NCBI GenBank assembly: GCA_051942245.1
Contig: JAVECL010000030.1
Span: 1-64,000, forward strand
Direction: 5' to 3'
Source: Trypethelium eluteriae
Lineage: Eukaryota
Length of the DNA stretch: 64,000 nucleotides
Of this stretch, positions 12,101 through 28,628 are shown in pieces; position 1 is the stretch's first letter; each line of letters opens with the position of its first letter. The translations under genes and the position numbers were made by a program. The notes below the pieces were generated by a model. That model was not told the origin of the DNA. It ran no database searches and saw only the letters and a list, made by a program, of their open reading frames with translations.

Positions 12101-15100
12101 GAAAATATGCATTGGGCGTGAACCAGAATCCATCAGCGATGACTTTGACAATGGCTTCAACGGTGAAGAGGGCCGCGAATCCCATGTCTGAGAATACGAA
12201 CCAGTTCTTGACGGTGAAGCCATGGGTCTGAAAGTACTGCCTCTGATAGAGCGGAGTGGTTACACAAGCAAGTACAACCATGGCTACGATGGCAGCATAG
12301 ATGAAGGCAGAAAAGGCATACCACAGCGGGATTGAGGGATCTACACCTTCGATTCGCTCTCCCCGTCCGGGTCCGACGAGACGCTGGCAAGCCTTTCGAA
12401 TCCGATTATCCGGTCCAAAGAGGTACAAAGACACATTGTAACTTTTGTGTTTGCGAAGATAATCTCTCTGCGCACGCTTTCGAAGTTCGGATGCCGTCAC
12501 AACCTCCTTAACCATTTGACGTGTGTCCAAATCCTCGTATGCTCGAGAGAGTTGCAATCGGGAATAGAAAGGGTTAGGTTCAGTGTCTTTGAAATACCCG
12601 ACAACAGATCTGAATATGGAATTCAGCGGTCCGGTATTCACGGTTTTCGAAGTTTTCCCGCCTGGTGAGCCTGTGCCATCAGCATCATCTGGACTTGGAG
12701 AGCTGCTTCGCTCGTCGTCGAGGAAATCCCTGACAACAGCATCTTTCAAGAGCATCTCTGTTGCCGCCGAACCAAAGTCCAGAGGATCCTGACGCCTAAA
12801 CTGGCCAAACTTAAAGATCGATGAGAGAGAAAGGTTACTGATCATGTCAGTTCCATTTCAGCTAGTAATGCATTTCCAACTCACCCGTGCGAAGAACCAC
12901 CCAGCTCTTTATGCTGCAGGAAAGCTCTGACCTGCTGCATGCGTTTTTCATCTTCGGACACGTCAAAGTTCTCCTGTATGACAGCGATGAACATATTGAG
13001 CACAATGACTTTGCTGTGGTTAGTAATGACAAACTTTGATGTAACGAGGATAGCAACATACAATTAGCAAGGATGAACCACAAAATGAAGAAGGCTGCAG
13101 CCATCCAAGCGGTCTTGAACATGTATTCGTAACTCGTTGCATTATACAGAATCGTCGTCCAGTTTTCGGTGGATAAGACTTGATACATTCCAAGAAACGA
13201 ATTGTAGATCGTAGCGAACGTGATGTGAATGGTATTGCCCTGAGAATCCTGGGAAGGGATCTGGTTGCGGAACATTTGCACTGCAAATATAGAAGCCAGA
13301 AAGGTGAGTAGGAACACGAAGAGAATTAGGTTAAGAAGACCAGAGACATGGCGGAGAACGACGAGCTAGATGATAATTTAGCAACCAGTCAATTTAGCCA
13401 AGATTTCTGGACTTACAATGAGCTCCCGTGTGAGAGGTACAGCCAGGACCACACGGTAAATTCGTAGAATTTGAAACAGCGTGAGCCAGGCATATGGCTG
13501 GCCCGAATTGTGTATCTCCGGGATCTGGATGATGGTGGTGATTATTGCAAGGAAAAAGTCAACCACGTTGCGCGGCTTATAGAAGAAGTTCCGCCAGTCC
13601 ACGGCCAGACGAATCATGATTTCAAACAAGAGTATAATGGTAACAACCGTTTCGGAGACATCAACAAATTGTTGGTGGCCATGGCTCATATTGGCAGTTC
13701 GAAGACACTGACATACTAAGCCGTATACGATGACAGCGATCCAGAACGAAGTGGACTTCTTGTAGAGTTTCTGCAGCGGCCTGGGTTTCTTAAAGGGATG
13801 ATCCTCAGGCTCCAGAATATCATTCCGCTCTTCAGCAGTAAAGGCACTGGTCTTGCTTTCTTCTCGGATGACCTGGAACGAGGATGTGATGACAGCGATC
13901 AACAAGTTGATGAGCCACAGACTCATGATGACAATGCCGAATGCAAAGAAGAGCGAAGCAGCAAGGTAATCGGATTGCGTCAGGTAGTACAGAAGGTCAC
14001 TAAACGTATTGGACGACATGATGACGAAAACGAGCTCCAAAGATTGAAAGATATTGTCGAAGCTGACCGTGCCATTGTACGGGTTCCCGCCCTCGATACA
14101 CTTGGATCCAGCTGGACAAAAATAACCTTTGGGGGAGGTGGTGCCTGGGCTGCCATCTGCGGTGATCCAGGGGTGTGGAATGTTGGAGTTGTCAAGCCAG
14201 CCACCGCAGAACTGAAATTGACCGGTCTGATTCTGTGTGAAGTTGGATTGGTTGCTGTCATCTGGAGCTATCCAGACACAAGTACGCCGAAGGCTCGACT
14301 TGAAGCTTTGTACACCGACAATTGCGAATAACAGCCAGAAGAAGCTGATCAGGAACGCAACATTGAGGAGCGTAGGTGCCGCTCTTTTCAAACTCCGCAG
14401 GATTACCGACGTACCACTTGTCAAGCCTAGTAGTCTCAAGATCCGTAGGCATGCGAGCATCCGGAAGAGGTAGAAATGGTCCTTCCATTCCAGCATAAAG
14501 ATATCCAGTATGAAGGAGGTCCAGAAGGAGCAGACGGCCAAAAAATCTAGTCGATTGAACGAGTGCCGCATGAAAGCACGGTGGGCAAGTCGAAAACGTT
14601 GTTGCTGCCGGTGATCTCTTGGCTGGTCGGGAGAGATAGAGGGGCCAGACGTGAATTTTCGGATGATCGACTGCTGGACTTCATCAGATCGGGGTGCATC
14701 GTGTCTGAACGAGGGTTTACGCTGCAGAGTGAAGAGGTTTTGGGCTTTGTCGAACAAGGCCTGTCGAAGACCGATCTCGCGATTGATGGTACTGTATTCG
14801 GTCGGATTCAGAATGAAGCCCGATACTATGATTCGAACAATAAGTTCGACAGTATAGATAGAAAACAGTATCAGCAGGCAGAAATCTATCCATCGACCTC
14901 CCCAGCGATAAGGAACATCTGCGATGGTTTTGGCCGAATCCACTGCCAGAAGGATTGTTTGGATGACGATCAGCACCAGGATGAAAGGTTCTGTAAGCGG
15001 ATGCACCAAGAGATCAAAGAGCCTCAATCTAACAGGACTGTCGGGTGGAAAGACACCAAGAGATCTTCCTCGAAGAGGGTTTTCCTCGAGCTGGGGTCTC

Positions 15101-16119
15101 TGCGGCTCTTCGTGGGCAATGATTGGGGTGTGATTTGGCGATGGCTGTTTCTCATTTGAAGTTGAATGCGGGCGGCTGGCAGTACCATCCATGAGATTAT
15201 CGAAAGACGGATCGCTATTCCGTTCGTGTTCAGGACGATTCACAGAGGACTTTCGTCGGATATGATGTTGAACAACTTCTGGCTCGTTGCTGAGATTGAC
15301 GACACGCTGTGACATCTTCCGAACCATTGTACCAGCCCTTTGCAGAGGCGTTTCGACTGTTGAAGGTGATAAAGACCGCTTCCGAGAGTCAGAGGACCTT
15401 GGCATACTGGGTGTCCCGAAACCGGCTTCCACCTGGCGCAAATCATCTCCGAGACGTGACCCAGGAGAATTTCCTCCAGGAGTGAGAAAGCGTATGCTCT
15501 GAAAACTATTTCTATCATGCCGCTGTCCGCTGGGAGTAGACGAGTCTGTGCCGCTAATGGGCTGCAAATTTCGACTATCCGTTAGTGGTGTCGTATCTCC
15601 GTAGTCTGGGGACAATGGATCTTGATGCTCATCATGCGCTGGCGGTGTATCTTGGCTCGAAGGTGTCCACGTTCTTTCTGGTGTTCGTGGTCGCTCATTT
15701 GATCTCGAACTTTCAGCATGCTCTGATGTTTCACCCTGAAAGCTCAGTCCCGCGAATCCGATCGCATCCTGGAACCCACTCATATCTTCGATTGGAGTGA
15801 AGCCAGCGTCCTCGTCATCATCCTGCAGATGGTGGCCAGTTGCAGAAGTTCTTGTGTAGGCTCCCTGATATTCTGCTCCCCCTCTTGTTGGACTAGCAGA
15901 ACCTTCTGCAATTGGTGCATATCTCCTTCCGAAACCCCTCGTAGCCAATGATGGACTGTGTCTTAGTATGTTCCTCCCTCTTTCCGTGAGACTTCGTGGC
16001 CTGGGTTGAGCATTTTCCTCATCACGCTTCCTCTGATCAGGTGGCCGGTTGAGGGTTTGCAGAGGTATTGCCTGCGGGGTCGAGCGAGCTCTGCCATGTT
16101 CAGGCTCATGGGAGGCCAT
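9186..16119 (-). CDS. CCH1: High-affinity calcium channel subunit Cch1 (4 x 6TM); introns 13366-13416, 13009-13061, 12838-12884, 10410-10460
   Basis: Four channel repeats with S4 segments (FRMLACLRILRLL, FKALRALRLL); pore loops SSNTF/STENW/SQEGW/MGEGW (N-E-E-E filter); EF-hand-like FDPGGSGYIT; canonical GT-AG introns join the ORFs in frame. Confidence 0.96.
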
Positions 16120-16891
16120 GGCGACGCGGCCCCAGCTACCGCCAAAACCTCATCTGTAAAGTCATGTGTACCTGTCAAGATCGAAAGCGAATCCTTGCTC
16201 AAGCTTCGATGGAAGAGGGCGGGTGCAGAAGGGATGATCGTGGTCGTGAAGGGTAATCGATAAAGGGAGAGGATGAGACGTTCCTTGTAAGATGAATGGA
16301 AGTCGTCAAATGAGGCAAAAGTCGAGTCAGTCGAGCAAGCTGTATTAGGGAAGTAGTCAATTGTGACGTAGGCGAGTCTAGGCGAGAGTTCAAAAGGTGT
16401 CTAGCAGGAGGATTGGCGGCGGCGGCGGATGGTGTTGGGTTGAGGTGTCGAGTAGTAAATAGCTATTCTTATCCAGGGACGAGGATCGGACTTGCGCCTC
16501 AAACGCATTTCAGCCCTGAGCCACACGCGTCTCATTAGCTGGCGTATGCAGAAACCGCCGCACTTGAGCAGGGGCACGGCCGGCTCCGAATCTTCAACAC
16601 CACATTCTATAGGCCACCACTTTTCTGTGGGCGAGCCCCTGATCTTGGGTCAACAACGATTATTTCCGTCCAATCTCGATGAGATTGAAGTTCCATCTCA
16701 ACTTTGAGAGTAATCAATACGCATCCAAGGAGAGTGACGCAACTATTTTGTATCCACATCCACCTTTGATGTTGAGTGGAAATCAGACTGTGTACGAATT
16801 TACGTTCACAGAAGGGCTAAATACCTATACTACCTATGAATCCACTTATCTCCGTCGCCTGGCAGATGCCTGAAGGTTGGCACGGTCGGTT

Positions 16892-16969
16892 GGGAAGCTG
16901 TAAGGACAACACCGCCGATCTGGAGGGACAATACCAACTAACCCCTTTTGGCCGTCATCAATGTGCCCT
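16892..16969 (+). repeat. Left terminal inverted repeat
   Basis: Aligns to reverse complement of 25479-25552; contains two copies of a CTG(T/G)A(A/G)GGACAA(C/T)AC motif. Confidence 0.88.
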
Positions 16970-17299
16970 TACATTTTATGTTTTGTTTTATAAATATTTC
17001 AAGTTTTTAATTTTCAATAAATATATAGCTATACGCTAATCTTTGTTTATTCTTATGTCTAATAAGCTCATTATTATAAGAAATATTAACTTTCACTTTT
17101 ATATTTACCAAAAGTACTAGCTTTGAATTTTCAATGGTCGTTGGGTTGGTGCGCATGACATGTGATGATGGGGAGACTGCCTGGACTCTTTTTTTGGTGT
17201 AAGCAGGCCTATTGTAGAGTAAACTAAAGCTGGCCATCTCTTCGCAATCACCTCTATCTTCAACAGTATTTCATAACCTCAACATAACATCATCCTATC

Positions 17300-18616
17300 T
17301 CAACCCATAGCAGGCTGCTCGTTGCCAGCGCTCGGCTGTGGCGTTAACCCCTTCGTTGAATACCCCAAAGGCATTCCCACAAGATACTTCTGCTTACTCG
17401 TTGGATTCCCTTGCGCGTCCGTACCTTGCGCTCCCAAGATCTGGACATCAGCGCTCGCCTGGAAAACCAGTACAATATCGCTTCCTCCAAATTCAAAGTG
17501 ACTGATTTCCTGACCTTTCGTAACTATGTCACCCGGCTTCACCGCAAGCTGAACGGACGAGACCTGGGCCATGCCAATAGGCAAGACGGCGACGTACCCC
17601 AAAAGCTCATTTTCGATGATGATGCAGCCACGGGTCTGCAGCCATTGGTATCCAGCGTCGTCAGGTGCATCCAGAGTCCCGGCGACGCCTTTCTTGGGAT
17701 CGCGGTTCTTCCTGTCCGGGTTGATGTAACTGCGGTGCGGGCGCAATTGACGTGTCACAGGATCCACTGTGACTTGCAGATAAGCCATGGCTTGGAATAC
17801 TTTCGCCTCCACGATCTTGCCAGCGATCGGAGCGTGCTGGCGGTGGTAATCGAAGGTATTGAGGAAAGCGTGCATCCAAATGCCTCCCGTGAAGTAAGGG
17901 GTATATTTTGGGGTGGATTCTTGTAGAAGATCTTTGATGTTCCACTCGATGGATTTGATGTTGACGTTGTCATTAGAGTCAATGGGCCAAGCTCCGTCGA
18001 AGGTGCTGTCGGCCGGGAAAGTGACAAGGCGGTGGTAATTGGGATCTTGCGCGCCGTTGGCGGCGCCGCTGATGGGACGCATGCCTTGTTTTAGCTTGCG
18101 CGAGAACAGCTCATTGAAAGTGGTATAGCCACCAGATGGCAGATCAGCCTCTGCGTAATTGTAAAGTGGCGACGCTTGAAAGGTGGCAATAGAAGCCTTG
18201 GCGAGAGAGTTCGCAGTACTCATCCAGCTACCGACCTCTTTGGCAAAATCAACAATGAACTGGCTAAGCTTGAATAGAGGCTGTCCGATGGAGCTTGAAG
18301 CGATGTCATTCTGATAAGGAGAGGCATTGAGAGGTGCCTGGCCGAAAACAAAGTAGACCAAGCACTGCGCATTATAGATGAGCTTGCCATTTGTGGTTTC
18401 GGTTGGTACCCAGGTAAGAAAGCCGCTCAAAAACCTCAGGAACGCATCACTATCGCCGATACCCCAGTCATCAAATTGAGGAACTTTAGACTGTACGGCA
18501 GTCTCCATCGCAGTGTCCAAGTCGGTGATGTCTCCATTGAAGACCCCTTTGACGAGGTGATCATTGGTCCATTGGGCTACGGTCGTGGGGATCTAGAATG
18601 GTGGAGGGTCAGACAT
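17300..18616 (-). CDS. Phosphatidylserine-decarboxylase-family pyruvoyl enzyme; in-frame TAG at codon 8 (18593-18595), possibly disrupted
   Basis: FNELFSRKLK, DYHRQHAP, PIGMAQVSSV and FEFGGSDIV (GGS self-cleavage motif). ATG at 18616 in CATAATG context is in frame and reads MSDPPPF*IPTTVAQW. Confidence 0.85.
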
Positions 18617-18713
18617 TATGAGTGATCCGGGTATTAGAGCTTCCTGAGTCGATTGTCTTCCAGATTGTATAAGAGGTGGAAATGTATTCGAGATCGATAG
18701 CTCCGGTGTCCCT

Positions 18714-18721
18714 CTTATATA
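18714..18721 (-). promoter_or_regulatory. Candidate TATA box (TATATAAG) for the PSD-like gene
   Basis: About 100 bp upstream of the ATG at 18616 on the minus strand. Confidence 0.45.
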
Positions 18722-19107
18722 GACTGGAACTGTGTTAACGCAGGCTCTGGATAATCACGCGAGTGGAATGAAAAAATACAGCCATAACCTTCAGTTGAAG
18801 ACTTACTTTACCATAATTGCATTTGTAGACTGCATGAGTACGCTCTTGCTGCACAATGGTCACGCGTGGCACAAAGCATGCACCATGACTTTTTGCGACT
18901 ACATTGGTTGCAGCATACGTCACTATCATCCGATCTGACTGATTGAAGAAATGATTCACGCCAACGCATCGATCCGTATCCAGCTCATGTAAGCTGATCC
19001 AATGCTACCGTATGAAATTCCAAACAGCATACGCCAATTGATGTACTCTTTGTCGCGGGAGCTGAGGTCCTCTCTCTGTCTGGACTTGGGCGCAAAACAC
19101 CACCATC

Positions 19108-19320
19108 GCTGCTTGCGTAGCCAGCCATTTCTTGACATGATACCTGCTTGCGTAGCCAGCTATTTCTTGACATGATAGCTGCTTTCGTGGCCAGCCATCT
19201 CTCTTGACTTTATAGCTGCTTATATGGCCAGCTATCTTTAAACATGAGGCCCTGTATGCTAACTTTCCAAGCCAGCGACCTCTCTTGACACTCTCTGAGC
19301 TAGCGACCTCTCTTGATAAC
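19108..19320. repeat. Degenerate ~35-bp tandem array (GCTGCTTGCGTAGCCAGCCATTTCTTGACATGATA), 4 clear plus 2 decayed units
   Basis: Units at 19108, 19143, 19178 and ~19215, then shorter AGCGACCTCTCTTGA copies. Confidence 0.8.
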
Positions 19321-19682
19321 CTATCAATCTTAAACCTTCTACTTATGCACTAACAATTGGGACCTCGGATCTGAGCCTCTTACTGTATGGATCCAACTCT
19401 TAATCTATCCCTTGGATAATCATAATCCTCCTTTACCCTCCCAATAATATATCTTTCAAACTCTGCTAAAGATAAACCACTGGGTCTGCCTTTGGTCTGC
19501 GCCTCTGGGTCTCGCTGGGGCAAGGGGGGTAGGACGTGAGTGGTTGGTTGGATGTAAACTAGACTGCGAAGCTTTAAGTAGCCTTCGCTCAAAACTGCGA
19601 CGTCGTGTAACCATATGACTGTCGCCCAGATAGATTGGTAAAATGAAAGCGATCCTAGGCTGCAATAGAGTAAGGTCAGTGC

Positions 19683-19724
19683 TCGCAGTTCGCAGTTCGC
19701 CGTTCGTCGTTCGCCGTTCGCAGT
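19683..19724. repeat. 7-bp tandem repeat TCG(C/T)(A/C)GT x6
   Basis: tcgcagt tcgcagt tcgccgt tcgtcgt tcgccgt tcgcagt read directly. Confidence 0.85.
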
Positions 19725-20599
19725 TGTTGAACATATCTCTCTAGGTACTATCTAGAGCATCACGTAAAACCTACTTAGCCACAGTACTAAGCTAAGAAGG
19801 ATAGGGCGGTACGCTTGTGGCACCTTATCGCACTCTAGCCGTAGGGAAGATAGAACCCAACATCTCTATCCTCCCAGAATTATCACCGTCGTGTCACGGC
19901 CTAACGCAGATAGAAAGCGAGCGAGAGGTCGCGCTAGGTAAAAATCGGTTAGGCACGTAGCTGGCCGTCGACAAATCGCCCAAAGCTTAATACAGTTACT
20001 GTACACCGACGACGTACACGCACCCCAAGCACCCCCCAAGGCACCTACGGAAACGCTAACACAGTAAGCCACGTCCGGAGGCTATCGACGTCCCCTTTCG
20101 ATAACGTCGAGTAGATAGAGTATCTAATGGCGACACCACGGGGACCTTCACCTTGTCCCGTACATGGGAAACTATTAGCTATAGCCTACATGGAATGTAC
20201 AACCATCGTCACGAAATTGCCACTTCTCTTGGAGTCCTCATCGTCTTCAATCTGTGCTTTCTATTCTGCTTGATACCAATCCTAGATGTGGTTTTAGCGC
20301 TTCAGACAGAATGCAGGTTGCTGAAGCCGTCGAGACGGTCTGGTTCGCGGTCCTAGTGCAAGGCTGAGTTGGGACACAGTGGAAAGGACCTCTACCACCT
20401 TACCATACTTCGAGGCCGACTTGGCAATGCCGGCTATCGCTAGTGCTTCGTATCTGGTGAGTCTGCATGATTTATATCTGAGCATTCGAGTCTTGGAATT
20501 TTACGTCCTAAGCTCCTTTTTCCTCGTCCTCTTTATTTCTATTTCTTTCCTGTTCTCGTAGAGCAACACGCAAAGCTATCAGAGTCAATACTTTCCAAA

Positions 20600-21400
20600 A
20601 TGCCCACTGTGGAGGTCGTCGCAGGCTTTAGTTTGCTCAACCGATGGCTACTTTACACAAGCGTAATGCTCGCACCTGCACAATTCGTTTCAGGACTTGG
20701 TAGCTACTGGCCAACTTCGATTGGCTTTCTAGCGTACAACTACTACACGCAAATCGCTTGGTACCACGCAATCGAACGTCTCGAGTTGCATGCGTTATCA
20801 CTACTAACCCCCAACTTCAACATCATCTACTTGGTCAGCTACCTGGGCGGCATCAGCAGCGGTACCATGTACCTGGAAGCTCCTTTGGGTGTTGGAACTG
20901 CAGGCGTCTTGCTCCTCAATACAGTCAGTGCATGGAAGAGCTGGGCATTATGTATGCCCCAAGGGTATCGCGTCTACGAGTTTTTCTTTTTCGGTTGGCG
21001 CAGACTTACGCCGGGTTGGCATCGTTTCTTTGGGGTTTGGCAAGCTAGTGATTCGTCCCTGACCTTAGCTGCAGCCATTCTCGCTGTGGTGATCCCTCTG
21101 ATTCTCAACAACAACGTGAGCAAGGCAAATGTCCCACGGTGGCTTAGGTGGGTTGTCTACCTGAGTCAGGCAGCGAAGGATGATCGGCTCCCGTGGTGGT
21201 TTACTCACGCCGCGCTCATTCCTGGGGCAGTAGTGATGCTGGTCTACAGCTTCCAGTTGATTCTGTGGACGGAGCTCATCGTACAGCGGAATAACATTGT
21301 CAGCCCGACCGACTGGATTGCTGTGTGGCTGTTCGTCGCGCAGATTGGAGCATGCTTCTTACCGCCATTGATACATTCTTTTCCGCCCTTACGCGAATAA
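20600..21400 (+). CDS. Multi-pass membrane protein of unknown function (266 aa)
   Basis: Good start context (CAAAATG), several hydrophobic Trp-rich segments, intronless. Confidence 0.75.
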   Translation: MPTVEVVAGFSLLNRWLLYTSVMLAPAQFVSGLGSYWPTSIGFLAYNYYTQIAWYHAIERLELHALSLLTPNFNIIYLVSYLGGISSGTMYLEAPLGVGTAGVLLLNTVSAWKSWALCMPQGYRVYEFFFFGWRRLTPGWHRFFGVWQASDSSLTLAAAILAVVIPLILNNNVSKANVPRWLRWVVYLSQAAKDDRLPWWFTHAALIPGAVVMLVYSFQLILWTELIVQRNNIVSPTDWIAVWLFVAQIGACFLPPLIHSFPPLRE

Positions 21401-22419
21401 TGGCAGGCAGACCACCAAAGAGCGCAGGCTTCGCTACACAGCTCAAGTGGTCGCAGGAGCAGGCGGAAAAGGCGCGACAGGCGAAGAGTGGGCCAGTCAG
21501 TGTGGAAGAAGCCCGCTTACAGCAAGAAGCCCGCTTACAGCAAGAGCATAATCAGTTCCTGGTTGCCATGGGACTTGTCTGGAAAAAGCAAGTTTTAGCG
21601 CACCCATATTGGCACACGATGACTCTTGCTCAGAAAGTTGAATATTTGCACCAGTTCCGGAGGGAAAAGTATTCACAAGCGCAGCAGCAGCACCCCTATA
21701 GTCACGGTACATTAGCCTCACAATACCCAGCAGCTATTCAACATTTACCGGCTACAGATGATGTACAAGTTATACAGTGCTCAGCGGTCGCTCATCGGCC
21801 ACCAGCTACTCAGTACCCACCAAGTACTCAGTACCGACCAGCTACACAGCACCCACTGAATATGCAGTACCCATCAGCTGCACAGCACCCAACGGCTACA
21901 CAGCGCCTCCCAGCTACACAGTATCGACCGGTTACACAGTGTCCACCAACCATAGAACGTCCACCAATTACACAGTACCCACCAGCTATACAGCGCCCGC
22001 CAATTATACAGTATCCACCAACTGTAGACCCACCGGCTACACAGTACCCACCGGCTACACAATATCCACCGGCTACACAATATCCACCACCTACGCAGTA
22101 CCTATCAGCTACACAACATCTACCAACTACACAGTACCTACCAGCTACGCGACCACCTTCGTCCCTCCAGTACCAACAAGCGCCTCGTCAATTACAGAGC
22201 ATTCATCGCCCTATCAACGAGAGTAGTAACCGTCAGATGCATTTCACATCAGGCATCGGACATAGCGCTTGGTGCAATGATCCCGAGCAAGAACGAGGCC
22301 CGCATGACACCTACAATAATGCGCAGGCTTGCTATTCCGTACCCAGGGCAACGGCAAACGAATTCAAGCGCGGGCTTAGCGCACGCCCACTTGCACCTGA
22401 TCGGCGAAACTCTTGGTAA
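21400..22419 (+). CDS. Gln/Pro/Tyr-rich protein with ~20 degenerate 6-aa (PPATQY-like, 18-bp) repeats
   Basis: Open frame from ATG 21400 (overlaps the upstream TAA as TAATG); repeats ~21795-22170 stay in frame; duplicated EARLQQ. Possible splice donor GTAAG at 22416. Confidence 0.55.
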   Translation: MAGRPPKSAGFATQLKWSQEQAEKARQAKSGPVSVEEARLQQEARLQQEHNQFLVAMGLVWKKQVLAHPYWHTMTLAQKVEYLHQFRREKYSQAQQQHPYSHGTLASQYPAAIQHLPATDDVQVIQCSAVAHRPPATQYPPSTQYRPATQHPLNMQYPSAAQHPTATQRLPATQYRPVTQCPPTIERPPITQYPPAIQRPPIIQYPPTVDPPATQYPPATQYPPATQYPPPTQYLSATQHLPTTQYLPATRPPSSLQYQQAPRQLQSIHRPINESSNRQMHFTSGIGHSAWCNDPEQERGPHDTYNNAQACYSVPRATANEFKRGLSARPLAPDRRNSW

Positions 22420-23074
22420 GAGATCCAGCTATTTGCGGAACACGGTTCCTCTCGGGATCAAGCGCGTATGCAATAGCGACGGACGTACTTTGCTGTTAGC
22501 CAAGATCGGGCGGTTCGAAAGAGCAACGTTACGCAAACTCCATAGCAAACTCGAGAGAAAAGATGGACCAGAGATTCTCTTCTGCTGCAGAATCGAAGCA
22601 CCTGTGGATTTTCTCGCGACGCAGTGGTTCTCGCCACAAATTTGGAGATGTAATCATCATTAATCATTGTTTCTCAATCAATGAGCATGAAGAAGCAAAG
22701 TCCGGACCTTTGATATAGGTTGTTATGGTTGTCTAGTCAATTGCCCGTCCAGGTAAAGCTGCCTGCTTCTTGATGGTTCTAGAATGCTTTGACAGGTCTT
22801 CGCTAGGATCTAGAGATTCTTGGGTAATCATAGGCGTATCAGCGATCGCAACCTAAGTAGAAGCGCACATTGATCACATATTCTGGCATAACAACTTGAT
22901 GGCGAATATGAAGTAGAGATTCTCATCGCAATGACAGATGGTCTTAAAAACTACCTTGACCATTGGTTAACTTGTAAAGGCGGCAGAGCTTGAGCAGCTT
23001 AAGCATATGTAGGTGTAGATAAAGCCAACGTAAGGCCGGTGGCTTAGATTACCACATTTGCGTTAGCGTAAATA

Positions 23075-23265
23075 CAGTAAATATTCGATATCACGTAATC
23101 TGATATAGCGAAATTATGCGATATTACGGAATTTCACGGTGATTTGAGGGGCATTCTAACCTGAATGGGTATACGCTAAGCCATATTAGTCGATTTGTCA
23201 ACGAATATTCGGTATAACGTACCAAATCTCCAGATCATTTCGTTCGTTATATCGAATATTTACTG
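23075..23265. mobile_element. 191-bp MITE (Tc1/mariner-pogo type) with 21-bp TIRs and TA target duplication
   Basis: TA|CAGTAAATATTCGATATCACG ... CGTTATATCGAATATTTACTG|TA (20/21 match); internal partial TIR copy AATATTCGGTATAACG. Confidence 0.9.
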
Positions 23266-23592
23266 TACAACTGATTTGGGTTACGAACGTGGTCGTTTTT
23301 ATCTTCGAGAACGTAAGGTACAATCTTAGCAAGATCGAAACCCAAACGGATTAGCAGGATCCTTGAGGATACTTGCTCGTTCTATGGTTCTTCCATAATT
23401 ATTCTAGCGTTTGAAGGAAGACTCTTTCGCCAATTGGTCGAACCGAACCTTGCGACAAAAGCGTTCGAGAGCCTATCTACCTATGTCTTGGTTTAGCTCC
23501 GCTGGTCAAACTACCGCATACTCTAGCGTGGCATGCCGAGCTTGGCTGCGGTATTCACAACAAGGATTAGCTAATCATCGCGGAGAGCCAAG

Positions 23593-25125
23593 ATGCACGC
23601 TGCATGGCATATTTACGAGATTCGGCATCAGATTTTTAGTAGCCTTGAGCCTCAAGACTTTGCACGACTTGCACGCATTTGCTCAACCCTTTTCACGGTT
23701 TGCACTGACAAACTATGGGCACGGATAGCGTCCCTCAAACCATTTCTCCATGCTCTACCACAGGACTTCAGGGAGCGGCCACTTACAAAACAAGATGTCC
23801 AGCGACTCAACTTGTACGCTGACAAAACCCAAGAGCTGGACCTGGAAAAGGAAAGTGGCAGGCGCGCCATTCGATTGAAGAGCAAGGGCTTGGAGCAAAA
23901 ATCTTTGAAGAAATGGGACGAGCTATGGGCCGAAATCGCAGCGTTACGACCACTATCGGATTTCCTGCCCAACGTTCGTCGGGTTTGCTTGTATAACGTA
24001 ACTGCAGATGTGATTGTTCCACTTATCAGCATAACTGGCGCGAAGTTGAGTCATCTTTCTATCAACATCTATAACCCTGAAACCAACGGCGCCGTCTGCC
24101 AATTCCTAGAAAGCCTTGCCGACACCTCTCGACTCGAGTCCGTTTCCTTACACGACGGTCTCATTCCTCCCAAGCTGATCCAACAAGCACCTCTCAAGCG
24201 CCTACGCCTGAACCATGTCTTCTTGTTACGCAGCGACCAGAGACGTATTCCTCTCTGTCTCGACCTCCTCGAAAAGTCCACGCTCGAGCGCCTATCCTTT
24301 AGCCTTCCTGTGGAATGGTGTTGGCCCCTCATTGATACACCGAAGGGTAAGTACCTTCCGCGGCTTCAGAAGCTCTGGCTAGATCTTAAACATTTCGAGC
24401 CCGAACGCTGCAGCCGCTGCCTTTATACCAAAGACCTTTATATCAAAGAGCCCGGCGAGCAGACGCGCACCCATAGCGGCCGGTACGCGCCTGCCCTATT
24501 CCTCGAAGCGCTGGATCGGCGAGAGCTCAAGCTGCTGAAAATCGAGCTTCCCGGTGACGCAACGCCTAAGATGGTTCGAGACGTGGTACGCGCGGCGCGG
24601 GATAGCTGCCAGCTCAACACTTTCGAGGATCTCACGCTCGGACGCAGCGGGTGGTATTCACAATGCCAAGAGTGTCGCGACACCGTGCTGCCGGAGAGCA
24701 AGCCAGAGCACGTGCGCGAGGTGTTGAGCACGTTGCTCCCGATGCCGCATCTCCGGAAGCTGCGCTTAAGCGTCCCTCTAAATTTCGTCGACAGCCTAGA
24801 TGTAGCTTTTTACTGCGAGATGGCAAATGGCTTGCCAATGCTGGAGACTCTAAAGCTAGACTTCCGTGAATCGGTGCCGCTGCATCACCTCGCTGCATTT
24901 TGTAGCATGCTGCCGAACGTCACGAGGGTGAGCTTGAGAAAAGCAGACTACACGGCGCTAGAGGAGATGCCAAGGGAGGAGTGGGCGTGCCCGCGTGTTC
25001 AACGGTTGAAAATTATGGATTGGGACCCTGATGAAGATGGAGAAGGCGCGTCGAGAGAGGCATTGTACCGCAACTTGCAAACCTACTTTCCAAACACCGA
25101 GCTGGCCAAGAGAGGTCCTGAATAG
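23593..25125 (+). CDS. F-box-like / leucine-rich-repeat (RNI-like) protein (510 aa), intronless
   Basis: N-terminal MHAAWHIYEIRHQIFSSL...FARLARICSTL...KLW F-box-like segment; repeated LxxLxL units (LPRLQKLWL, MPHLRKLRL, LPMLETLKL). Confidence 0.8.
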   Translation: MHAAWHIYEIRHQIFSSLEPQDFARLARICSTLFTVCTDKLWARIASLKPFLHALPQDFRERPLTKQDVQRLNLYADKTQELDLEKESGRRAIRLKSKGLEQKSLKKWDELWAEIAALRPLSDFLPNVRRVCLYNVTADVIVPLISITGAKLSHLSINIYNPETNGAVCQFLESLADTSRLESVSLHDGLIPPKLIQQAPLKRLRLNHVFLLRSDQRRIPLCLDLLEKSTLERLSFSLPVEWCWPLIDTPKGKYLPRLQKLWLDLKHFEPERCSRCLYTKDLYIKEPGEQTRTHSGRYAPALFLEALDRRELKLLKIELPGDATPKMVRDVVRAARDSCQLNTFEDLTLGRSGWYSQCQECRDTVLPESKPEHVREVLSTLLPMPHLRKLRLSVPLNFVDSLDVAFYCEMANGLPMLETLKLDFRESVPLHHLAAFCSMLPNVTRVSLRKADYTALEEMPREEWACPRVQRLKIMDWDPDEDGEGASREALYRNLQTYFPNTELAKRGPE

Positions 25126-25478
25126 ATTCATGGACCTAGCCTTAGATTTAGTTAAAATGACTGTCAGGATACATTTCTCTCTTTACTATGACCTACACAT
25201 AGAGACATGATAAATATAGAATACTATAAAAATAGTAAGTATTCTATTCTGTCTTGACCGGATAGAATTAGACATATTAATCCTACTATCAGTTAACGAC
25301 ATACAATAACATCTATAAATTGCTTTCTACTTTCTCTTTGAGACTGTTCAGAACGAAAAAAATGCCTTATAAATATCTTGTATATTGATAAATTTATTTA
25401 AACTTTAAAGTATCAACTATAAGTAATCTTAATTGTAAGCCAGAATTTTACTTTAGTATATTAACTTTTACACAGCAG

Positions 25479-25552
25479 AGGGCGCGTTTGTTACGGACGA
25501 AAAGGGTTAGTATTTTCCTTACAGATCAGTGGTGTTGTCCTTACAGTTTCCC
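25479..25552 (-). repeat. Right terminal inverted repeat
   Basis: Reverse complement GGGAAACTGTAAGGACAACACCACTGATCTGTAAGGAAAATACTAACCCTTTTCGTCCGTAACAAACGCGCCCT aligns to 16892-16969. Confidence 0.88.
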
Positions 25553-25905
25553 GGTTGGTTTCGATAGGGGTCATGGGGGTGAATGACACCGATACCGATT
25601 TCAAGATACGCCACTCCGGATCGGACCGAAATTCTCCGGTCTCCGTGCGATGTCTTGGAACGCTTTGGGAACGCGACTTGACCTCACGAGCCACCTGAAC
25701 TTTTGCTCAATACGTCGCACGCGTCCTCCCCTGCCCGATAACGGATTTCACATTCTCCACTAACCTGCAAACCCAAGTCTTTATGAGCGCCTCGAGCGGT
25801 CAAGAAGCTTCGAACTACCTATTGCCTACCTAGGCATTGCCCCGAAGTCCATTCCCTCCGACGTCTCTTGCGACTGAGCGCGTCACTCTCATCCCTTCTC
25901 TAAAA

Positions 25906-28628
25906 ATGCCCGGTCGAAAGAGGAAAATTCAGGATGTCGAAGTTGAGAGTGTACCTCGTGCATCGGCGCCCATCGATGATATCCTTCGAAGGCTCCGTAA
26001 CATGTGGCAATTTGCTAGTCTAATGCAATACCTATATTTATTCGGAAAGGCTGTCAAAGTCGACGAGGACCTCGATATCGATGTAGGTGTTTCCCGAGAT
26101 CATCTAGTGCCGCCCTCATGGCGTCCTCTATAGCAGTGGAATCTGACACGTCACTAGGAACTTGAGCGGGAATGCATGAAGCCAACCCCGTCTGAGAGAC
26201 TATCCGCTCTTGGGCTTGCACTCCTCAAGTTCGTTTCTTCGCACAGAGGCTTGACACCCGAGATCTTTGACGAATACACGCGCCGTCAATATCTAGCTAA
26301 AGCCCCGCAGCGTAATCCTTTTGGGGAGGACGAGGTGCCTAATAAGTTTGACGATTTTGACATTTTCACCAAGATTCAAGTCCTACATCAATTATCTACG
26401 TGGACATTCACCAACCCTGATCGCATCAGGGAGCGTATGAGCGAGCGTGATTACCAACAAGCATCCTGGGTATGTGTACTTATCAACCGTTGGCGAGAGG
26501 CCTCTGACCGATTGTACAGCGAATGGAACCCCAAGGCTGGGATGCTGAGGATCGTGCTTACTTTGTCTTGGATGATGATCGCCTCTACCGCCTGACTGAG
26601 GCTCCTCTTCCGCCAACGCCTGCTAAAGGAAAGTCCAAACTCAAATCCAAACCAAAGCATACGAAAGCTACGAGGTCAAACAAGCGGAGAAAGATTTCAC
26701 GTACAGTCGTTGATACGGAGGACGAGGATGATGAAATGATAACTGCGCCTGAACCTGAACCCGAGCCTGAGCCGGAAGAAGATGGGTTTGGAGGTCAGAA
26801 GTGGGAGTGTATTGCCATCACCCTTCAAGACTACCAACAATTCCTGGAAGACTTCCGCCGCAGTCGTCATCCCGCCGAACGCCACCTTCACAAAGTTCTG
26901 TCGACCAAAGTGCTCCCCGTTATACAACAAAGGGCTGAGGCACAAGCGCGCAAGGCCGCTAAGAAGCAAAGGGAGCTGGAAAATCTGCAGAAGATGGTGA
27001 CTGCGAAGCGCTCGAGTAGACTCGCTGACAAATATGAGAAACAAAAACAGGAGGAAGATGCGGCTGCGGCAGAACGCAGACATCAGGCGGATCTTGCCAT
27101 GGCCAGAAAGGAACAGGAAAGGCAGCAAAAGATGGAAGCTGTAAGTGCTACGTGGATGGAGGCCAGCCTCTTTAGCTGAATTTCCCTAGGCACGCGAGTC
27201 TCGAATGATGACACGCGAACAGCGACTCAAAGAGCGTGAAGTTAAGCGCATTCTTGAGGAAGAGGAGTTGACGAAGCTTGAAGAAGATAGCAAGAAAATC
27301 GAGACTGGCGATTCCCGCATTTCGGAACGACATCTCAAAGCAGAGATGGAGAGGCGCCAGAAAGAGCTTGAAAAGCTGTCACAGGAGGACGATTGGGTGT
27401 TTGACTGCGCTGTCTGCGGGATGCATGGAGAGAACCTGGTACGTTGGCACATCCAATCCGGTAACTCGAGACTCATGGTAGATAGGATGATGGATCACAT
27501 AGCATTGCTTGCGAGAGTTGCAATGTTTGGCAGCATAGCAAGTGTCACGGTATCGCAGTCGAGGAGGCTGAGCGAGACGACTTTCATTTCATTTGCACGG
27601 CCTGCAAGCGTCATGACGAGCAAGCAAAAAGACCAAAGACTCCGTCTCTCAAGATTCGCTTGTCATCATCTCCAAGGACCGAGAAGACCTCCAAACCAGC
27701 CGACATGATTGGAGATACTGCTAACAACGTTGAGATGGATCGACCCGTCATCTCGAGGGAGCTTGAAAGTGTGCAAATATCACCGCCACAAAAGCCTCAA
27801 CGCCACTTCAACCACGCAGGCACGCCGGCTAGTGTTCGGAGTGGCCCTAGTCTATCTCCGCAAGGGCAAGGGGCAGCACCTCCCGGCATGTATCGACCAA
27901 ATGGTAATCCCAACCTTCATCAGTCCGCATGGAACGGCCACCCACCGGATTCTCCTGCAAGGCTTGCATCCTCTACTCAAGCCCTCGGACTTGCGATCAC
28001 TAATGGCATATCAACAGGCTCACCACCCCCAGCTCGCATGACTAATGGCTTCGTTAATGGTACTGATCATGAGGTGGGCCCCAATACTCCTGTGAAGCAC
28101 ATGGCAAATGGCACCAAGGCAGACACGTCTTCGTCTGGCGTAGCTCCATCAGGAAACGATCCTTTCCATACCTCTTTTGGACAACAGCGATCCCCTTCCA
28201 ACTATTCTGGCATGAATGCACCATCGCCTATTAAGCAACAATCGTCGCATTCTCCCCATCAAACAACAAATTTTTATAATTCAAGCCCTTTTTCAGGGCC
28301 GTCAAATCCTTCCACCTCCTTTCCGCCAGTATCACAACAACCGGCAAGATTAAACCAGTCTCCCACAAAGCAGAGTACATCTCCACCGCAGCCTGCATAC
28401 TCTCCTCCACAGCACTTCCAACAAGAAAATGCTAGAAGCATCTTTCCTCCAAGTATCCCACCTCCAGCAAAACAGGAAAACGTCCGACCACTCTCAAGTC
28501 ATACTCCATTGAACTCTCAAGGGATTCCCCCTGCACCGGCATTATCTCCAAGCGCGCACCCGCAGATTTTGGATCCGCCAACCAAAAAGTCCCCAGAACA
28601 GCTGTCGCAGGGTACTAATTTTGGTTGA
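25906..28628 (+). CDS. WHIM/DDT-like plus PHD-finger chromatin protein; about 4 introns (near 26083-26157, 26470-26519, 27141-27190, 27439-27486)
   Basis: LRNMWQFASL, KIQVLHQLS (WHIM1-like), GWDAEDRAYFVLDDDRLY and WECIA; spliced PHD FDCAVCG...IACESCNVWQHSKC...FICTAC; Pro/Ser-rich tail. Confidence 0.85.

What the first reader, a model, noticed from the sequence alone, without database searches (positions are those of the whole stretch)
16884..25560. 8.7-kb cargo-carrying TIR transposon (fungal Pack-MULE-like element) between CCH1 and the PHD gene
Seen: 16892-16969 and 25479-25552 are inverted repeats starting GGGAA (21/22 then 28/31 identical at the tips, recognisable to ~75 bp), each with a duplicated internal CTGTAAGGA-like motif. 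They are flanked by GGTCGGTT / GGTTGGTT (9 bp, CGGT(C/T)GGTT, if one terminal base is reassigned). Both sub-terminal zones are very AT-rich. Inside are four gene-length ORFs with no introns needed (PSD-like, membrane protein, QYPPAT-repeat protein, F-box/LRR), decayed relics and a MITE, but no recognisable DDE transposase or tyrosine recombinase. Known: long G-initiated TIRs with ~8-11-bp TSDs characterise Mutator/MULE elements, and gene-capturing Pack-MULEs are mainly described in plants. Inference: a non-autonomous MULE that mobilises whole genes in a fungus, distinct from Starships. Removing it leaves an ordinary ~1.1-kb divergent intergenic region.
Basis: partly seen in the sequence, partly recalled or inferred. 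Interest (0 to 1): 0.9.

Follow-up and report, generated by a model that had tools for sequence, protein, structure and literature searches.

The report
Gene-carrying transposon in a lichen fungus
An 8.7-kb stretch between two housekeeping genes of a lichen-forming fungus is a transposase-less cut-and-paste transposon that encloses three ordinary-looking genes, a rare but not unprecedented way for fungal genes to change place.

Summary
Window 16892-16969 and 25552-25479 are a real inverted-repeat pair (60/78 identical, tip 21/22, E 2.5e-11 against the window). It is flanked by GGTCGGTT / GGTTGGTT (7/8; chance about 4e-4). In the one public run that holds this DNA, about 15 further copies of the terminus occur. 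Those alignments stop exactly at the tip (16892) and diverge after 60-77 bp, so this is one member of a multi-copy TIR family with a private interior.

No transposase or recombinase domain was found inside. The "four ORFs" are three genes:
- a PsiD-like decarboxylase with its own promoter but a stop at codon 8;
- a membrane protein whose tail is now in another frame;
- an intact F-box/LRR protein.

A sister species (CCH1 94% identical) has 2 annotated genes between CCH1 and the GPN GTPase gene, where this species has 6, three of them cargo. That is indirect evidence for an empty site.

The MULE assignment is compatible (8-bp TSD, about 75-bp TIR) but untested; hAT and Zisupton also make 8-bp TSDs. 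Whether the cargo travelled with the ends or was acquired in place is not shown. Closest known: ToxhAT and Pack-type elements. Moderately interesting.

The parts
16884..16891 (.). Left target-site duplication, GGTCGGTT
   Evidence: Matches the right flank 7/8; chance 4.4e-4.
16892..16969 (+). Left terminal inverted repeat. The tip is GGGAAG. It holds two CTG(T/G)A(A/G)GGA-type sub-repeats 22 nt apart.
   Evidence: In run X1 other genomic copies begin exactly at 16892 and diverge at 16950-16968. 7 contigs carry T at 16923, and summed depth is 6616 against 404 for single copy.
16970..17130 (.). Left AT-rich sub-terminal zone with RIP-like composition
   Evidence: GC 0.19, TpA/ApT 1.17, (CpA+TpG)/(ApC+GpT) 0.92. 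The whole window gives 0.50, 0.69 and 1.28.
17300..18616 (-). PsiD-like (phosphatidylserine-decarboxylase family) gene. The native ATG is at 18616-18614, a TAG stop lies at codon 8 (18595-18593), and the next ATG gives the 402-aa ORF 17300-18508.
   Evidence: Pfam PS_Dcarbxylase 1.8e-38. 100% identical to the C-terminal 402 aa of KAF2233558.1. Alignment with L001 and L002 shows AAG changed to TAG at codon 8. dN/dS 0.24-0.26.
18617..18863 (-). The gene's own promoter region, with a conserved TATA-like box, carried with the gene
   Evidence: Homology to L001 and L002 runs to window 18863 and 18812 and stops there.
19132..19430 (.). Nested or adjacent multi-copy repeat of about 300 bp, with 35-37-nt tandem units at 19095-19247
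   Evidence: the repeat finder family D2. In X1 there are extra contigs and loose ends at 19132 and 19430, and one contig joins 19170 to 19388.
20600..21400 (+). Membrane-protein ORF (266 aa) of an ascomycete family of unknown function
   Evidence: 57 cluster representatives at E<=0.001; best 52-54% identity; typical length 263-281 aa. The atlas gives only 'hypothetical protein' clusters of Ascomycota. No Pfam family.
21352..22419 (+). QYPPAT-repeat tail ORF. It is the former C-terminal part of the membrane-protein gene, now in another frame; the frames overlap at 21352-21400.
   Evidence: The tail of P0274 (523 aa; residues 254-372) aligns to the start of this ORF at 29% identity, E 4e-9. Sequence of the junction. 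18-nt repeat units.
23073..23267 (.). Nested MITE, 23-nt TIRs starting CAGT, flanked by TA (Tc1/mariner-like by these features)
   Evidence: Multi-copy in X1: bin depth 1229 against about 415, with a loose end at 23073.
23593..25125 (+). Intact F-box/LRR protein gene (510 aa)
   Evidence: Pfam F-box-like 1.8e-7. AlphaFold2 model with pLDDT 76.4. Best Foldseek PDB matches are TIR1, COI1 and FBXL-type F-box/LRR proteins, E 3e-8. Only 10 proteins at E<=0.001, the best non-self 42% identical.
25130..25478 (.). Right AT-rich sub-terminal zone with RIP-like composition
   Evidence: GC 0.27, TpA/ApT 1.21, (CpA+TpG)/(ApC+GpT) 0.81.
25479..25552 (-). Right terminal inverted repeat. The tip is GGGAAA on the minus strand, with two sub-repeats 22 nt apart.
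25553..25560 (.). Right target-site duplication, GGTTGGTT

Best explanation
The 8,661-bp stretch 16892-25552 is one copy of a non-autonomous class II (cut-and-paste, TIR) DNA transposon.

Inferred mechanism: a transposase made elsewhere in the genome binds the twice-repeated CTGTAAGGA-type sites in each ~75-bp end. It cuts at the GGG tips and joins the element into a staggered 8-bp cut, which leaves GGT(C/T)GGTT on both sides.

This copy landed in the shared promoter region between CCH1 and a PHD-finger gene, in the lineage of this Trypetheliaceae lichen fungus, after or around its split from a sister species.

Between its ends it holds no transposase. It holds three host-type genes of different ancestry: a PsiD-like decarboxylase with its own promoter, a membrane protein, and an F-box/LRR protein. 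It also holds a nested MITE and another repeat. Two of the three genes already carry lesions.

Shown: the ends, the duplication, the multi-copy family with a shared tip, the lack of transposase, and the gene content.

Indirect: the empty site in the sister species.

Inferred: trans-mobilisation, and that the cargo was inside when the element inserted (I put this at about 0.6). The superfamily is open: Mutator-like about 0.45, hAT about 0.2, other 8-bp-TSD groups or unknown for the rest.
For: (1) TIR pair: 60/78 identical, E 2.5e-11 in the window. The tip occurs twice against 0 expected.

(2) Flanking 8-mers match 7/8, chance 4.4e-4.

(3) Family: in run X1, 27 records were laid on 14 kb. 7 contigs carry the family variant T at 16923. 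Summed depth there is 6616 against 404 for single copy, roughly 15 further termini. 2 contigs have loose ends exactly at 16892, and others diverge at 16950 and 16968. A 52-kb contig matches only 16892-16962.

(4) The tip (1/22 differences) is better kept than the inner part (17/56 differences); Fisher p 0.016. This fits intrinsically imperfect TIRs with a functional tip.

(5) No transposase or recombinase. 10 long ORFs gave only PS_Dcarbxylase, F-box-like, Ion_trans and nothing else. 0 of 55 inter-ORF frames of at least 40 aa reached a curated cut-off at E<=1.

(6) The same insertion is present in X1, where contigs bridge both junctions. X1 differs from the window by about 10 SNPs in 14 kb. 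Gene order in the second annotated assembly is CCH1 KAF2233557.1, PsiD-like ...558.1, F-box ...560.1.

(7) Sister species (CCH1 94% and another protein 90% identical): CCH1 is Q9165_003444, the GPN GTPase is _003441 and cwf19 is _003440, all on one 433,484-nt contig. That leaves only 2 genes between CCH1 and GPN. The other assembly has 6 there (KAF2233558-563, if the GPN gene, whose accession was hidden, directly precedes cwf19 KAF2233565.1), three of them cargo. No protein of that species appeared among the PsiD-like hits (best 120 listed) or the F-box hits (all 10).

(8) In two metagenome contigs the closest PsiD-like genes (88% and 81% aa) share only the gene plus 270-350 bp of promoter with the window. 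No CCH1, PHD, membrane, tail or F-box match and no TIR occurs within +-10 kb of L001.

(9) The sub-terminal zones have RIP-like composition, as expected if only the family-shared parts were repeated. This last point is inference.
Against: - No autonomous partner and no second cargo-bearing copy could be sought, because no genome is held.
- The 90% clusters of the PsiD-like and F-box proteins hold only the two near-identical assemblies. There is therefore no sign that this cargo-bearing element ever multiplied.
- The empty site rests on locus-tag order in a differently sampled genome, not on DNA. Gene models could be missing there.
- The arms are only 77% alike and the TSD is imperfect, so the copy is old or its ends were never perfect. 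It may no longer be mobile.
- The right arm has few look-alikes at 80% or more in X1: bin depth 496 against 425.
- The organisms of L001 and L002 are unknown. The PsiD-like tree puts a Leotiomycete inside the clade, so the different contexts may reflect unrelated genomes rather than capture.
- The PsiD-like gene has a stop at codon 8 and the membrane gene is frame-split. The cargo may be decaying rather than serving the host.
Confidence: 0.7

Rival explanations
1. A small gene-less member of the TIR family (MITE-like) inserted here. It was later inflated in place by nested insertions and ectopic repair, so the three genes were never moved by the transposon ends.
For: Nested insertions do occur inside the element: the TA-flanked MITE at 23073-23267 and the multi-copy repeat at 19132-19430. 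Other family copies share only 60-77 bp with this one. Only one cargo-bearing copy is on record. The empty site in the sister species fits this reading equally well.
Against: The gene blocks have no TIR, TSD or other mobile-element signature of their own at their borders. Placing three unrelated genes into one 0.5-kb target by chance, in a gene-dense core region, is unlikely. Acquisition in Pack-type elements is thought to accompany transposition (established view, recalled).
Confidence: 0.17
2. The genes are ancestral residents of the CCH1-PHD interval. The two ends are independent solo remnants of two separate family insertions, and the similar flanks reflect target preference or chance. The sister species lost or does not annotate the genes.
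For: The arms are only 77% identical and the TSD is imperfect. The left flank holds a further GGTTGG just upstream, which hints at a GGT-rich target region. The empty site is inferred only from annotation order.
Against: - Only two termini lie in 64 kb. They are in inverted orientation with in-register flanks matching 7/8, chance 4.4e-4.
- Two full elements would leave four termini.
- PsiD-like and F-box proteins are absent from the sister species' listed hits.
- The closest PsiD-like genes lie in other contexts.
Confidence: 0.06
3. The segment arrived by horizontal transfer or recombination on a larger vehicle, and the TIRs mark only a passenger boundary. This is how ToxhAT sits inside Starships.
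For: The PsiD-like gene has a cross-class, HGT-like phylogeny: Hyaloscypha bicolor lies inside a 100/100-supported clade with the window and Bathelium. The best named F-box hit is also a Hyaloscypha, at 41%.
Against: The flanks on both sides are collinear core genes shared with the sister species at 90-94% aa identity. Homology to other copies and the flank duplication coincide exactly with the TIR tips. There is no captain-type recombinase in the window's long ORFs.
Confidence: 0.05

Closest known systems
ToxhAT, the 14.3-kb ToxA-carrying TIR element of Dothideomycete wheat pathogens (PMC6737239; passages read)
   Same: Same fungal class. TIRs of about 74-78 bp. Several complete non-transposase genes between the ends. 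Nested smaller elements. RIP-affected ends in some hosts.
   Different: ToxhAT has no target-site duplication in any isolate, carries hAT and Tc1 transposase remnants, is 92% identical between its arms, and lies in large transposon-rich islands or Starships. The present element has an 8-bp duplication, no transposase trace, and sits alone in a core-gene region.
Pack-MULEs and other Pack-type (transduplicating) non-autonomous DNA transposons of plants
   Same: Transposase-less, family-shared long TIRs, private interior of host-derived DNA, insertion near the 5' ends of genes. The 8-bp TSD lies within the 8-11-bp MULE range (PMC6446971; passages read).
   Different: Pack-MULEs usually hold gene fragments copied from a parental gene that remains in the genome (recalled). 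Here the genes are whole, one keeps its promoter, and no parental copy at 90% or more is on record. Membership in Mutator is untested.
hAT elements that captured histone H3 in Dothideomycetes (PMC6710886; passages read)
   Same: Same class of fungi, 8-bp TSD, captured host coding sequence, about 9.5 kb long.
   Different: Those elements are autonomous-type, with hAT domains present. They have 18-20-bp TIRs, an intron-less retrocopy cargo, hundreds of RIP-inactivated copies and a retained original gene. Here the TIRs are about 75 bp with a GGGAA tip, no hAT domain is present, the cargo is genomic-type and the element is single-copy.
Hop-group Mutator-like elements of Ascomycota (Table 1 of PMC6446971; passage read)
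   Same: Ascomycete hosts; TIRs of 51-99 bp in that table, similar to about 75 bp here.
   Different: Those are autonomous elements defined by their transposase. TSD lengths for that sub-group are 'not indicated' in the table passage read. No sequence comparison was possible.
Starships
   Same: Cargo-carrying fungal mobile elements that create presence/absence differences between relatives.
   Different: Starships are tens to hundreds of kb and are defined by a DUF3435 tyrosine-recombinase 'captain' (PMC9156397; search listing and abstract only). This element has neither that size nor that gene.

Membership tests
Class II TIR (cut-and-paste) DNA transposon, non-autonomous | Terminal inverted repeats at both ends | tested here: met
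   60/78 identical, E 2.5e-11 in the window; the tip occurs twice against 0 expected.
Class II TIR (cut-and-paste) DNA transposon, non-autonomous | Target-site duplication directly outside the TIRs | tested here: met
   GGTCGGTT / GGTTGGTT, 7/8, chance 4.4e-4.
Class II TIR (cut-and-paste) DNA transposon, non-autonomous | The termini recur elsewhere in the genome with the same tip | tested here: met
   X1: 7 contigs with the family variant at 16923, depth 6616 against 404, loose ends exactly at 16892. Pairing and TSDs of those copies could not be seen.
Class II TIR (cut-and-paste) DNA transposon, non-autonomous | No transposase inside | tested here: met
   No transposase or recombinase Pfam family in 10 long ORFs. 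None of 55 inter-ORF frames reached a cut-off. 55 of 104 frames of at least 40 aa were sent; the 49 not sent overlap the long ORFs.
Class II TIR (cut-and-paste) DNA transposon, non-autonomous | Empty site in a relative | tested here: inconclusive
   Gene order only: 2 genes against 6 between CCH1 and GPN. No DNA of the relative was available.
Class II TIR (cut-and-paste) DNA transposon, non-autonomous | Autonomous partner with the same ends | not testable with these tools
   No genome is held for the window. The single read-laying run was used.
Mutator / MULE superfamily (including Pack-MULE) | TSD of 8-11 bp, usually 9 | tested here: met
   8 bp in register, the lower bound of the range. Range taken from a PMC6446971 passage.
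Mutator / MULE superfamily (including Pack-MULE) | Long TIRs (tens to hundreds of bp) | tested here: met
   About 75-78 bp.
Mutator / MULE superfamily (including Pack-MULE) | MuDR/MULE-type DDE transposase in related autonomous copies | not testable with these tools
   No genome access.
Mutator / MULE superfamily (including Pack-MULE) | Pack-MULE: captured fragments with a parental gene elsewhere in the same genome | tested here: not met
   The genes are whole. The 90% clusters of the PsiD-like and F-box proteins hold only the two near-identical assemblies. More distant paralogues in this genome were not excluded.
hAT superfamily | 8-bp TSD | tested here: met
hAT superfamily | Short TIRs (18-20 bp in Dothideomycete examples; the usual YARNG tip is recalled) | tested here: not met
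   The arms are recognisable over about 75 bp and the tip is GGGAA.
Starship | DUF3435 tyrosine-recombinase captain near one end; size of tens of kb or more | tested here: not met
   8.7 kb; no such Pfam hit.

The most novel reading that the evidence does not exclude
Lichen-forming Dothideomycetes harbour a still-mobile Mutator-like family whose transposase-less members pick up complete genes with their promoters and shuttle them between loci. Such elements may also be the vehicle for the cross-class spread of the PsiD-like decarboxylase seen between Trypetheliaceae and the Leotiomycete Hyaloscypha. That would be a small-scale fungal counterpart of bacterial cargo transposons, distinct from Starships.
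Probability: 0.15. Interest if true: 0.8.

Novelty: new variant of a known kind. Interest (0 to 1): 0.55.

Why it matters
Small TIR transposons that enclose whole genes are well documented in plants, mostly as fragments. In fungi they are known from very few cases. The best known, ToxhAT, lacks a target-site duplication, so its transposition is disputed.

Here the ends, the duplication, the multi-copy family and a probable empty site in a sister species coincide. This gives a cleaner case that a cut-and-paste element delivered, or at least frames, about 8 kb of gene-bearing DNA in a core chromosomal region.

If confirmed with genome-wide copies, it would show a route for moving accessory genes in fungi besides Starships. 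It is found in a lichen symbiont, where mobile elements are little studied. One cargo gene has a horizontal-transfer-like phylogeny, which makes the link between such elements and gene transfer testable.

Tried and rejected
- Whole-genome access: none is held for this window. No genome-wide TIR census, TSD survey or transposase partner search was therefore possible.
- Earlier findings by sequence (TIR, F-box) and by place: nothing.
- The look-up of sequencing runs: one DNA holder (X1). No RNA holder is listed, so nothing can be said on expression.
- TIR tip pattern in loci L001-L004: 0 matches. Relaxed blastn-short gave only 9-11-nt chance matches.
- Inverted repeats around the PsiD-like block in L001: none at the homology borders. 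L001 and L002 share a 3-kb block and then differ.
- CCH1 search for Bathelium synteny: no Bathelium CCH1 was among the 120 listed, so adjacency of its PsiD-like gene (M1822_000638) to CCH1 could not be tested.
- Element against the rest of the window, by blastn and tblastn: no other copy of any part.
- Second-level TIR/TSD at the borders between the AT-rich zones and the cargo: none seen.
- Full-text search for the TIR core motif: 0 papers.
- Searches for fungal Pack-MULE or cargo TIR elements gave ToxhAT, hAT-H3, Starships and TET-carrying transposons, but nothing on Trypetheliaceae. 14 papers mention Viridothelium virens; none has a title or abstract opening on transposons (listing only).
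- The ToxB preprint (passages read) concerns a Helitron-like element and is not comparable.
- Considered and dropped: Starship, Helitron, Crypton, and a composite of two complete small elements (only two termini are present).
- Complex prediction was not used; no binding claim is made.

Full report
**What the window is**

Protein look-ups place the window in a Trypetheliaceae lichen mycobiont. Its CCH1 is the record 'MAG: Q9157_001115 [Trypethelium eluteriae]' on an 87,626-nt contig. The PsiD-like and F-box ORFs fall in 90% clusters with Viridothelium virens KAF2233558.1 and KAF2233560.1.

The surroundings are ordinary core genes: an Fe-hydrogenase-like protein, CCH1, a PHD-finger protein, an amino-acid transporter, a GPN GTPase, cwf19, eIF3h, a GST and Pol lambda. 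No whole genome is held for the window.

**The observation**

Arms 16892-16969 and 25552-25479 align at 60/78, with one 4-nt gap. The E-value is 1e-13 pairwise and 2.5e-11 against the window. The 22-nt tip occurs twice at up to 3 mismatches, against none in 100 shuffles.

Each arm holds two CTGTAAGGA-type units 22 nt apart. The 8 nt outside the tips are GGTCGGTT and GGTTGGTT. A match of at least 7/8 in register occurs in 4.4e-4 of 200,000 random position pairs.

The tip (1/22 differences) is better conserved than the inner arm (17/56); Fisher p is 0.016. The JC distance of the arms is about 0.22.

The sub-terminal zones have GC 0.19 and 0.27 and RIP-like dinucleotide indices, unlike the rest of the window.

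**A multi-copy family**

Only one public run, X1, holds this DNA. Its contigs were laid on 14000-28000 at 80% or more, and 27 records laid.

- One contig bridges 14000-23131 and another bridges 23218-28000. The insertion is therefore present there too.
- X1 shows about 10 SNPs and an 18-nt deletion at 22048, so it is a different, nearly identical genome.
- At the left terminus, 7 further contigs carry T at 16923. Summed k-mer depth is 6616 against 404.
- Two contigs have loose ends exactly at 16892, and others leave the alignment at 16950 and 16968.
- A 52,245-nt contig matches 16892-16962 only.

The output showed only 8 of 30 pieces and 6 of 19 loose ends. The right arm attracts few look-alikes (bin depth 496 against 425).

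**Contents**

Pfam finds PS_Dcarbxylase (1.8e-38) and F-box-like (1.8e-7) and no transposase or recombinase. None of 55 inter-ORF stop-to-stop frames of at least 40 aa reached a curated cut-off at E<=1. I sent 55 of 104 such frames; the other 49 overlap the long ORFs.

*Gene 1, the PsiD-like decarboxylase.*
- Homologues are 438-443 aa.
- Aligned with L001 and L002, the window keeps the native ATG and seven codons, then has TAG where L001 has AAG. The promoter, with a TATA-like box, is conserved up to 18863.
- The 402-aa ORF starts at the next ATG.
- dN/dS against L001 and L002 is 0.26 and 0.24. The gene was under constraint for most of its history.

*Gene 2, the membrane protein.*
- The family has 57 cluster representatives. 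The best are 52-54% identical, and most are 263-281 aa.
- The closest, P0274 (523 aa), has a tail that aligns with the start of the QYPPAT ORF at 29% identity, E 4e-9.
- The two window ORFs overlap in different frames at 21352-21400. They are therefore one former gene, now split.

*Gene 3, the F-box protein.*
- It is intact. Its fold model (pLDDT 76.4) matches the F-box/LRR proteins TIR1, COI1 and FBXL2 at E 3e-8 and above.
- It has only 10 relatives at E<=0.001, the nearest at 42% identity.

*Nested repeats.* A TA-flanked MITE lies at 23073-23267 and a repeat of about 300 bp at 19132-19430. Both are multi-copy in X1.

**Relatives**

*The second annotated assembly.* The gene order is CCH1 KAF2233557.1, PsiD-like ...558.1, one gene, then F-box ...560.1. 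The cwf19 gene is ...565.1.

*The sister species 'Trypethelium subeluteriae'.* Its CCH1 is 94% identical and another protein is 90% identical. On one 433,484-nt contig, CCH1 is Q9165_003444, the GPN GTPase is _003441, cwf19 is _003440 and a further flank gene is _003434.
- Two genes lie between CCH1 and GPN there, against six here, if the GPN gene (accession hidden) directly precedes cwf19. Three of the six are cargo.
- No protein of that species appears among the PsiD-like hits (best 120 of 1387 listed) or the F-box hits.
- This is indirect but consistent evidence for an empty site.

*Metagenome contigs.* Those with the closest PsiD-like genes (L001 at 88% aa, L002 at 81%) share only window 17297-18863 with the window. 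Homology ends about 6 bp after the stop codon.
- Neither CCH1, PHD, the membrane, tail or F-box proteins, nor the TIR occur in +-10 kb of L001.
- The neighbours there are a HET-domain ORF, a DyP peroxidase and a C2H2 protein; in L002 the neighbour is an SDR.

*A caveat from the tree.* I built a tree of 34 of the 120 listed hits. The choice was mine: all of the closest unnamed hits except P0009, plus a spread of named taxa, leaving 86 out. It puts Hyaloscypha bicolor (Leotiomycetes) inside a 100/100-supported clade with the window and Bathelium, as sister to the L002 protein. The gene itself therefore looks horizontally mobile, and L001 and L002 need not come from close relatives.

**Interpretation**

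The coincidence of ends, duplication, shared family tip and probable presence/absence boundary makes a single transposon insertion the best reading (0.7).

The mechanism is inferred from what is known of TIR transposons. A transposase supplied in trans binds the repeated sub-terminal sites, and an 8-bp staggered cut is made at the target. Whether the cargo was on board at insertion is not shown; I put it at about 0.6 against acquisition in place.

The superfamily is open. An 8-bp TSD fits hAT and Zisupton and lies at the low end of the 8-11-bp MULE range. Arms of about 75 bp resemble ascomycete Hop-group MULEs (51-99 bp) more than Dothideomycete hAT elements (18-20 bp). These figures come from passages of PMC6446971, PMC6710886 and PMC12730594.

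**Comparison and novelty**

The nearest described thing is ToxhAT: 74-bp TIRs, eight genes and no TSD (PMC6737239, passages read). The nearest concept is the Pack-type transduplicating element.

This element differs by combining whole genes, a clear TSD, no transposase trace and a core-genome site in a lichen fungus. It is a new variant of a known kind, of moderate interest. Its value would rise sharply if further cargo-bearing family members or a link to the gene's cross-class spread were shown.

Noticed in passing
window 17300-18616 (-); proteins P0008, P0010, P0013: The PsiD-like decarboxylase has an HGT-like phylogeny. Hyaloscypha bicolor (Leotiomycetes; 75% identical to the window's protein, partial record) nests inside a 100/100-supported clade with the window and Bathelium (Dothideomycetes). 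By contrast CCH1, a conserved protein, is only about 50% identical to the hits named as other Pezizomycotina classes (class assignments recalled).
   Followed up: partly
window 18593-18595 (-): A TAG stop lies at codon 8 of the native PsiD-like reading frame, where L001 has AAG. No difference from the window was reported for X1 at this place. One public gene model bridges the stop with an upstream exon that lies in the conserved promoter and is probably artificial.
   Followed up: yes
window 23073-23267: A 195-bp MITE with 23-nt TIRs starting CAGT and TA flanks. It is multi-copy in X1, with bin depth about three times single copy. No other copy lies in the 64-kb window.
   Followed up: partly
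window 19095-19430: A repeat of about 300 bp with four 35-37-nt tandem units. It is multi-copy in X1, with loose ends at 19132 and 19430 and one contig skipping 19170-19388. No TIR or TSD was recognised.
   Followed up: no
window 22048 (tail ORF repeats): X1 lacks 18 nt here, one repeat unit of the QYPPAT array. This is an in-frame length polymorphism between two nearly identical genomes.
   Followed up: no
window 23593-25125: 4 of the about 10 SNPs between the window and X1 in 14 kb fall in the F-box/LRR gene. 3 amino-acid differences separate the two protein records. This points to relaxed or diversifying selection, but the numbers are small.
   Followed up: no
whole window (protein records P0133, P0253, P0002): Records labelled with two different species names (a MAG called Trypethelium eluteriae and Viridothelium virens) are nearly identical here. 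The PsiD-like ORF is 100% identical, and X1 ('organism A', not identified) differs from the window by about 10 SNPs in 14 kb. One of the labels may be off, or the names may be used for one species.
   Followed up: no
L001 11841-12122: An inverted repeat with 70-nt arms (70% complementary) and a 142-nt spacer lies about 600 bp downstream of the PsiD-like gene in the metagenome contig. It is possibly a MITE and is unrelated in sequence to the window's TIR.
   Followed up: no
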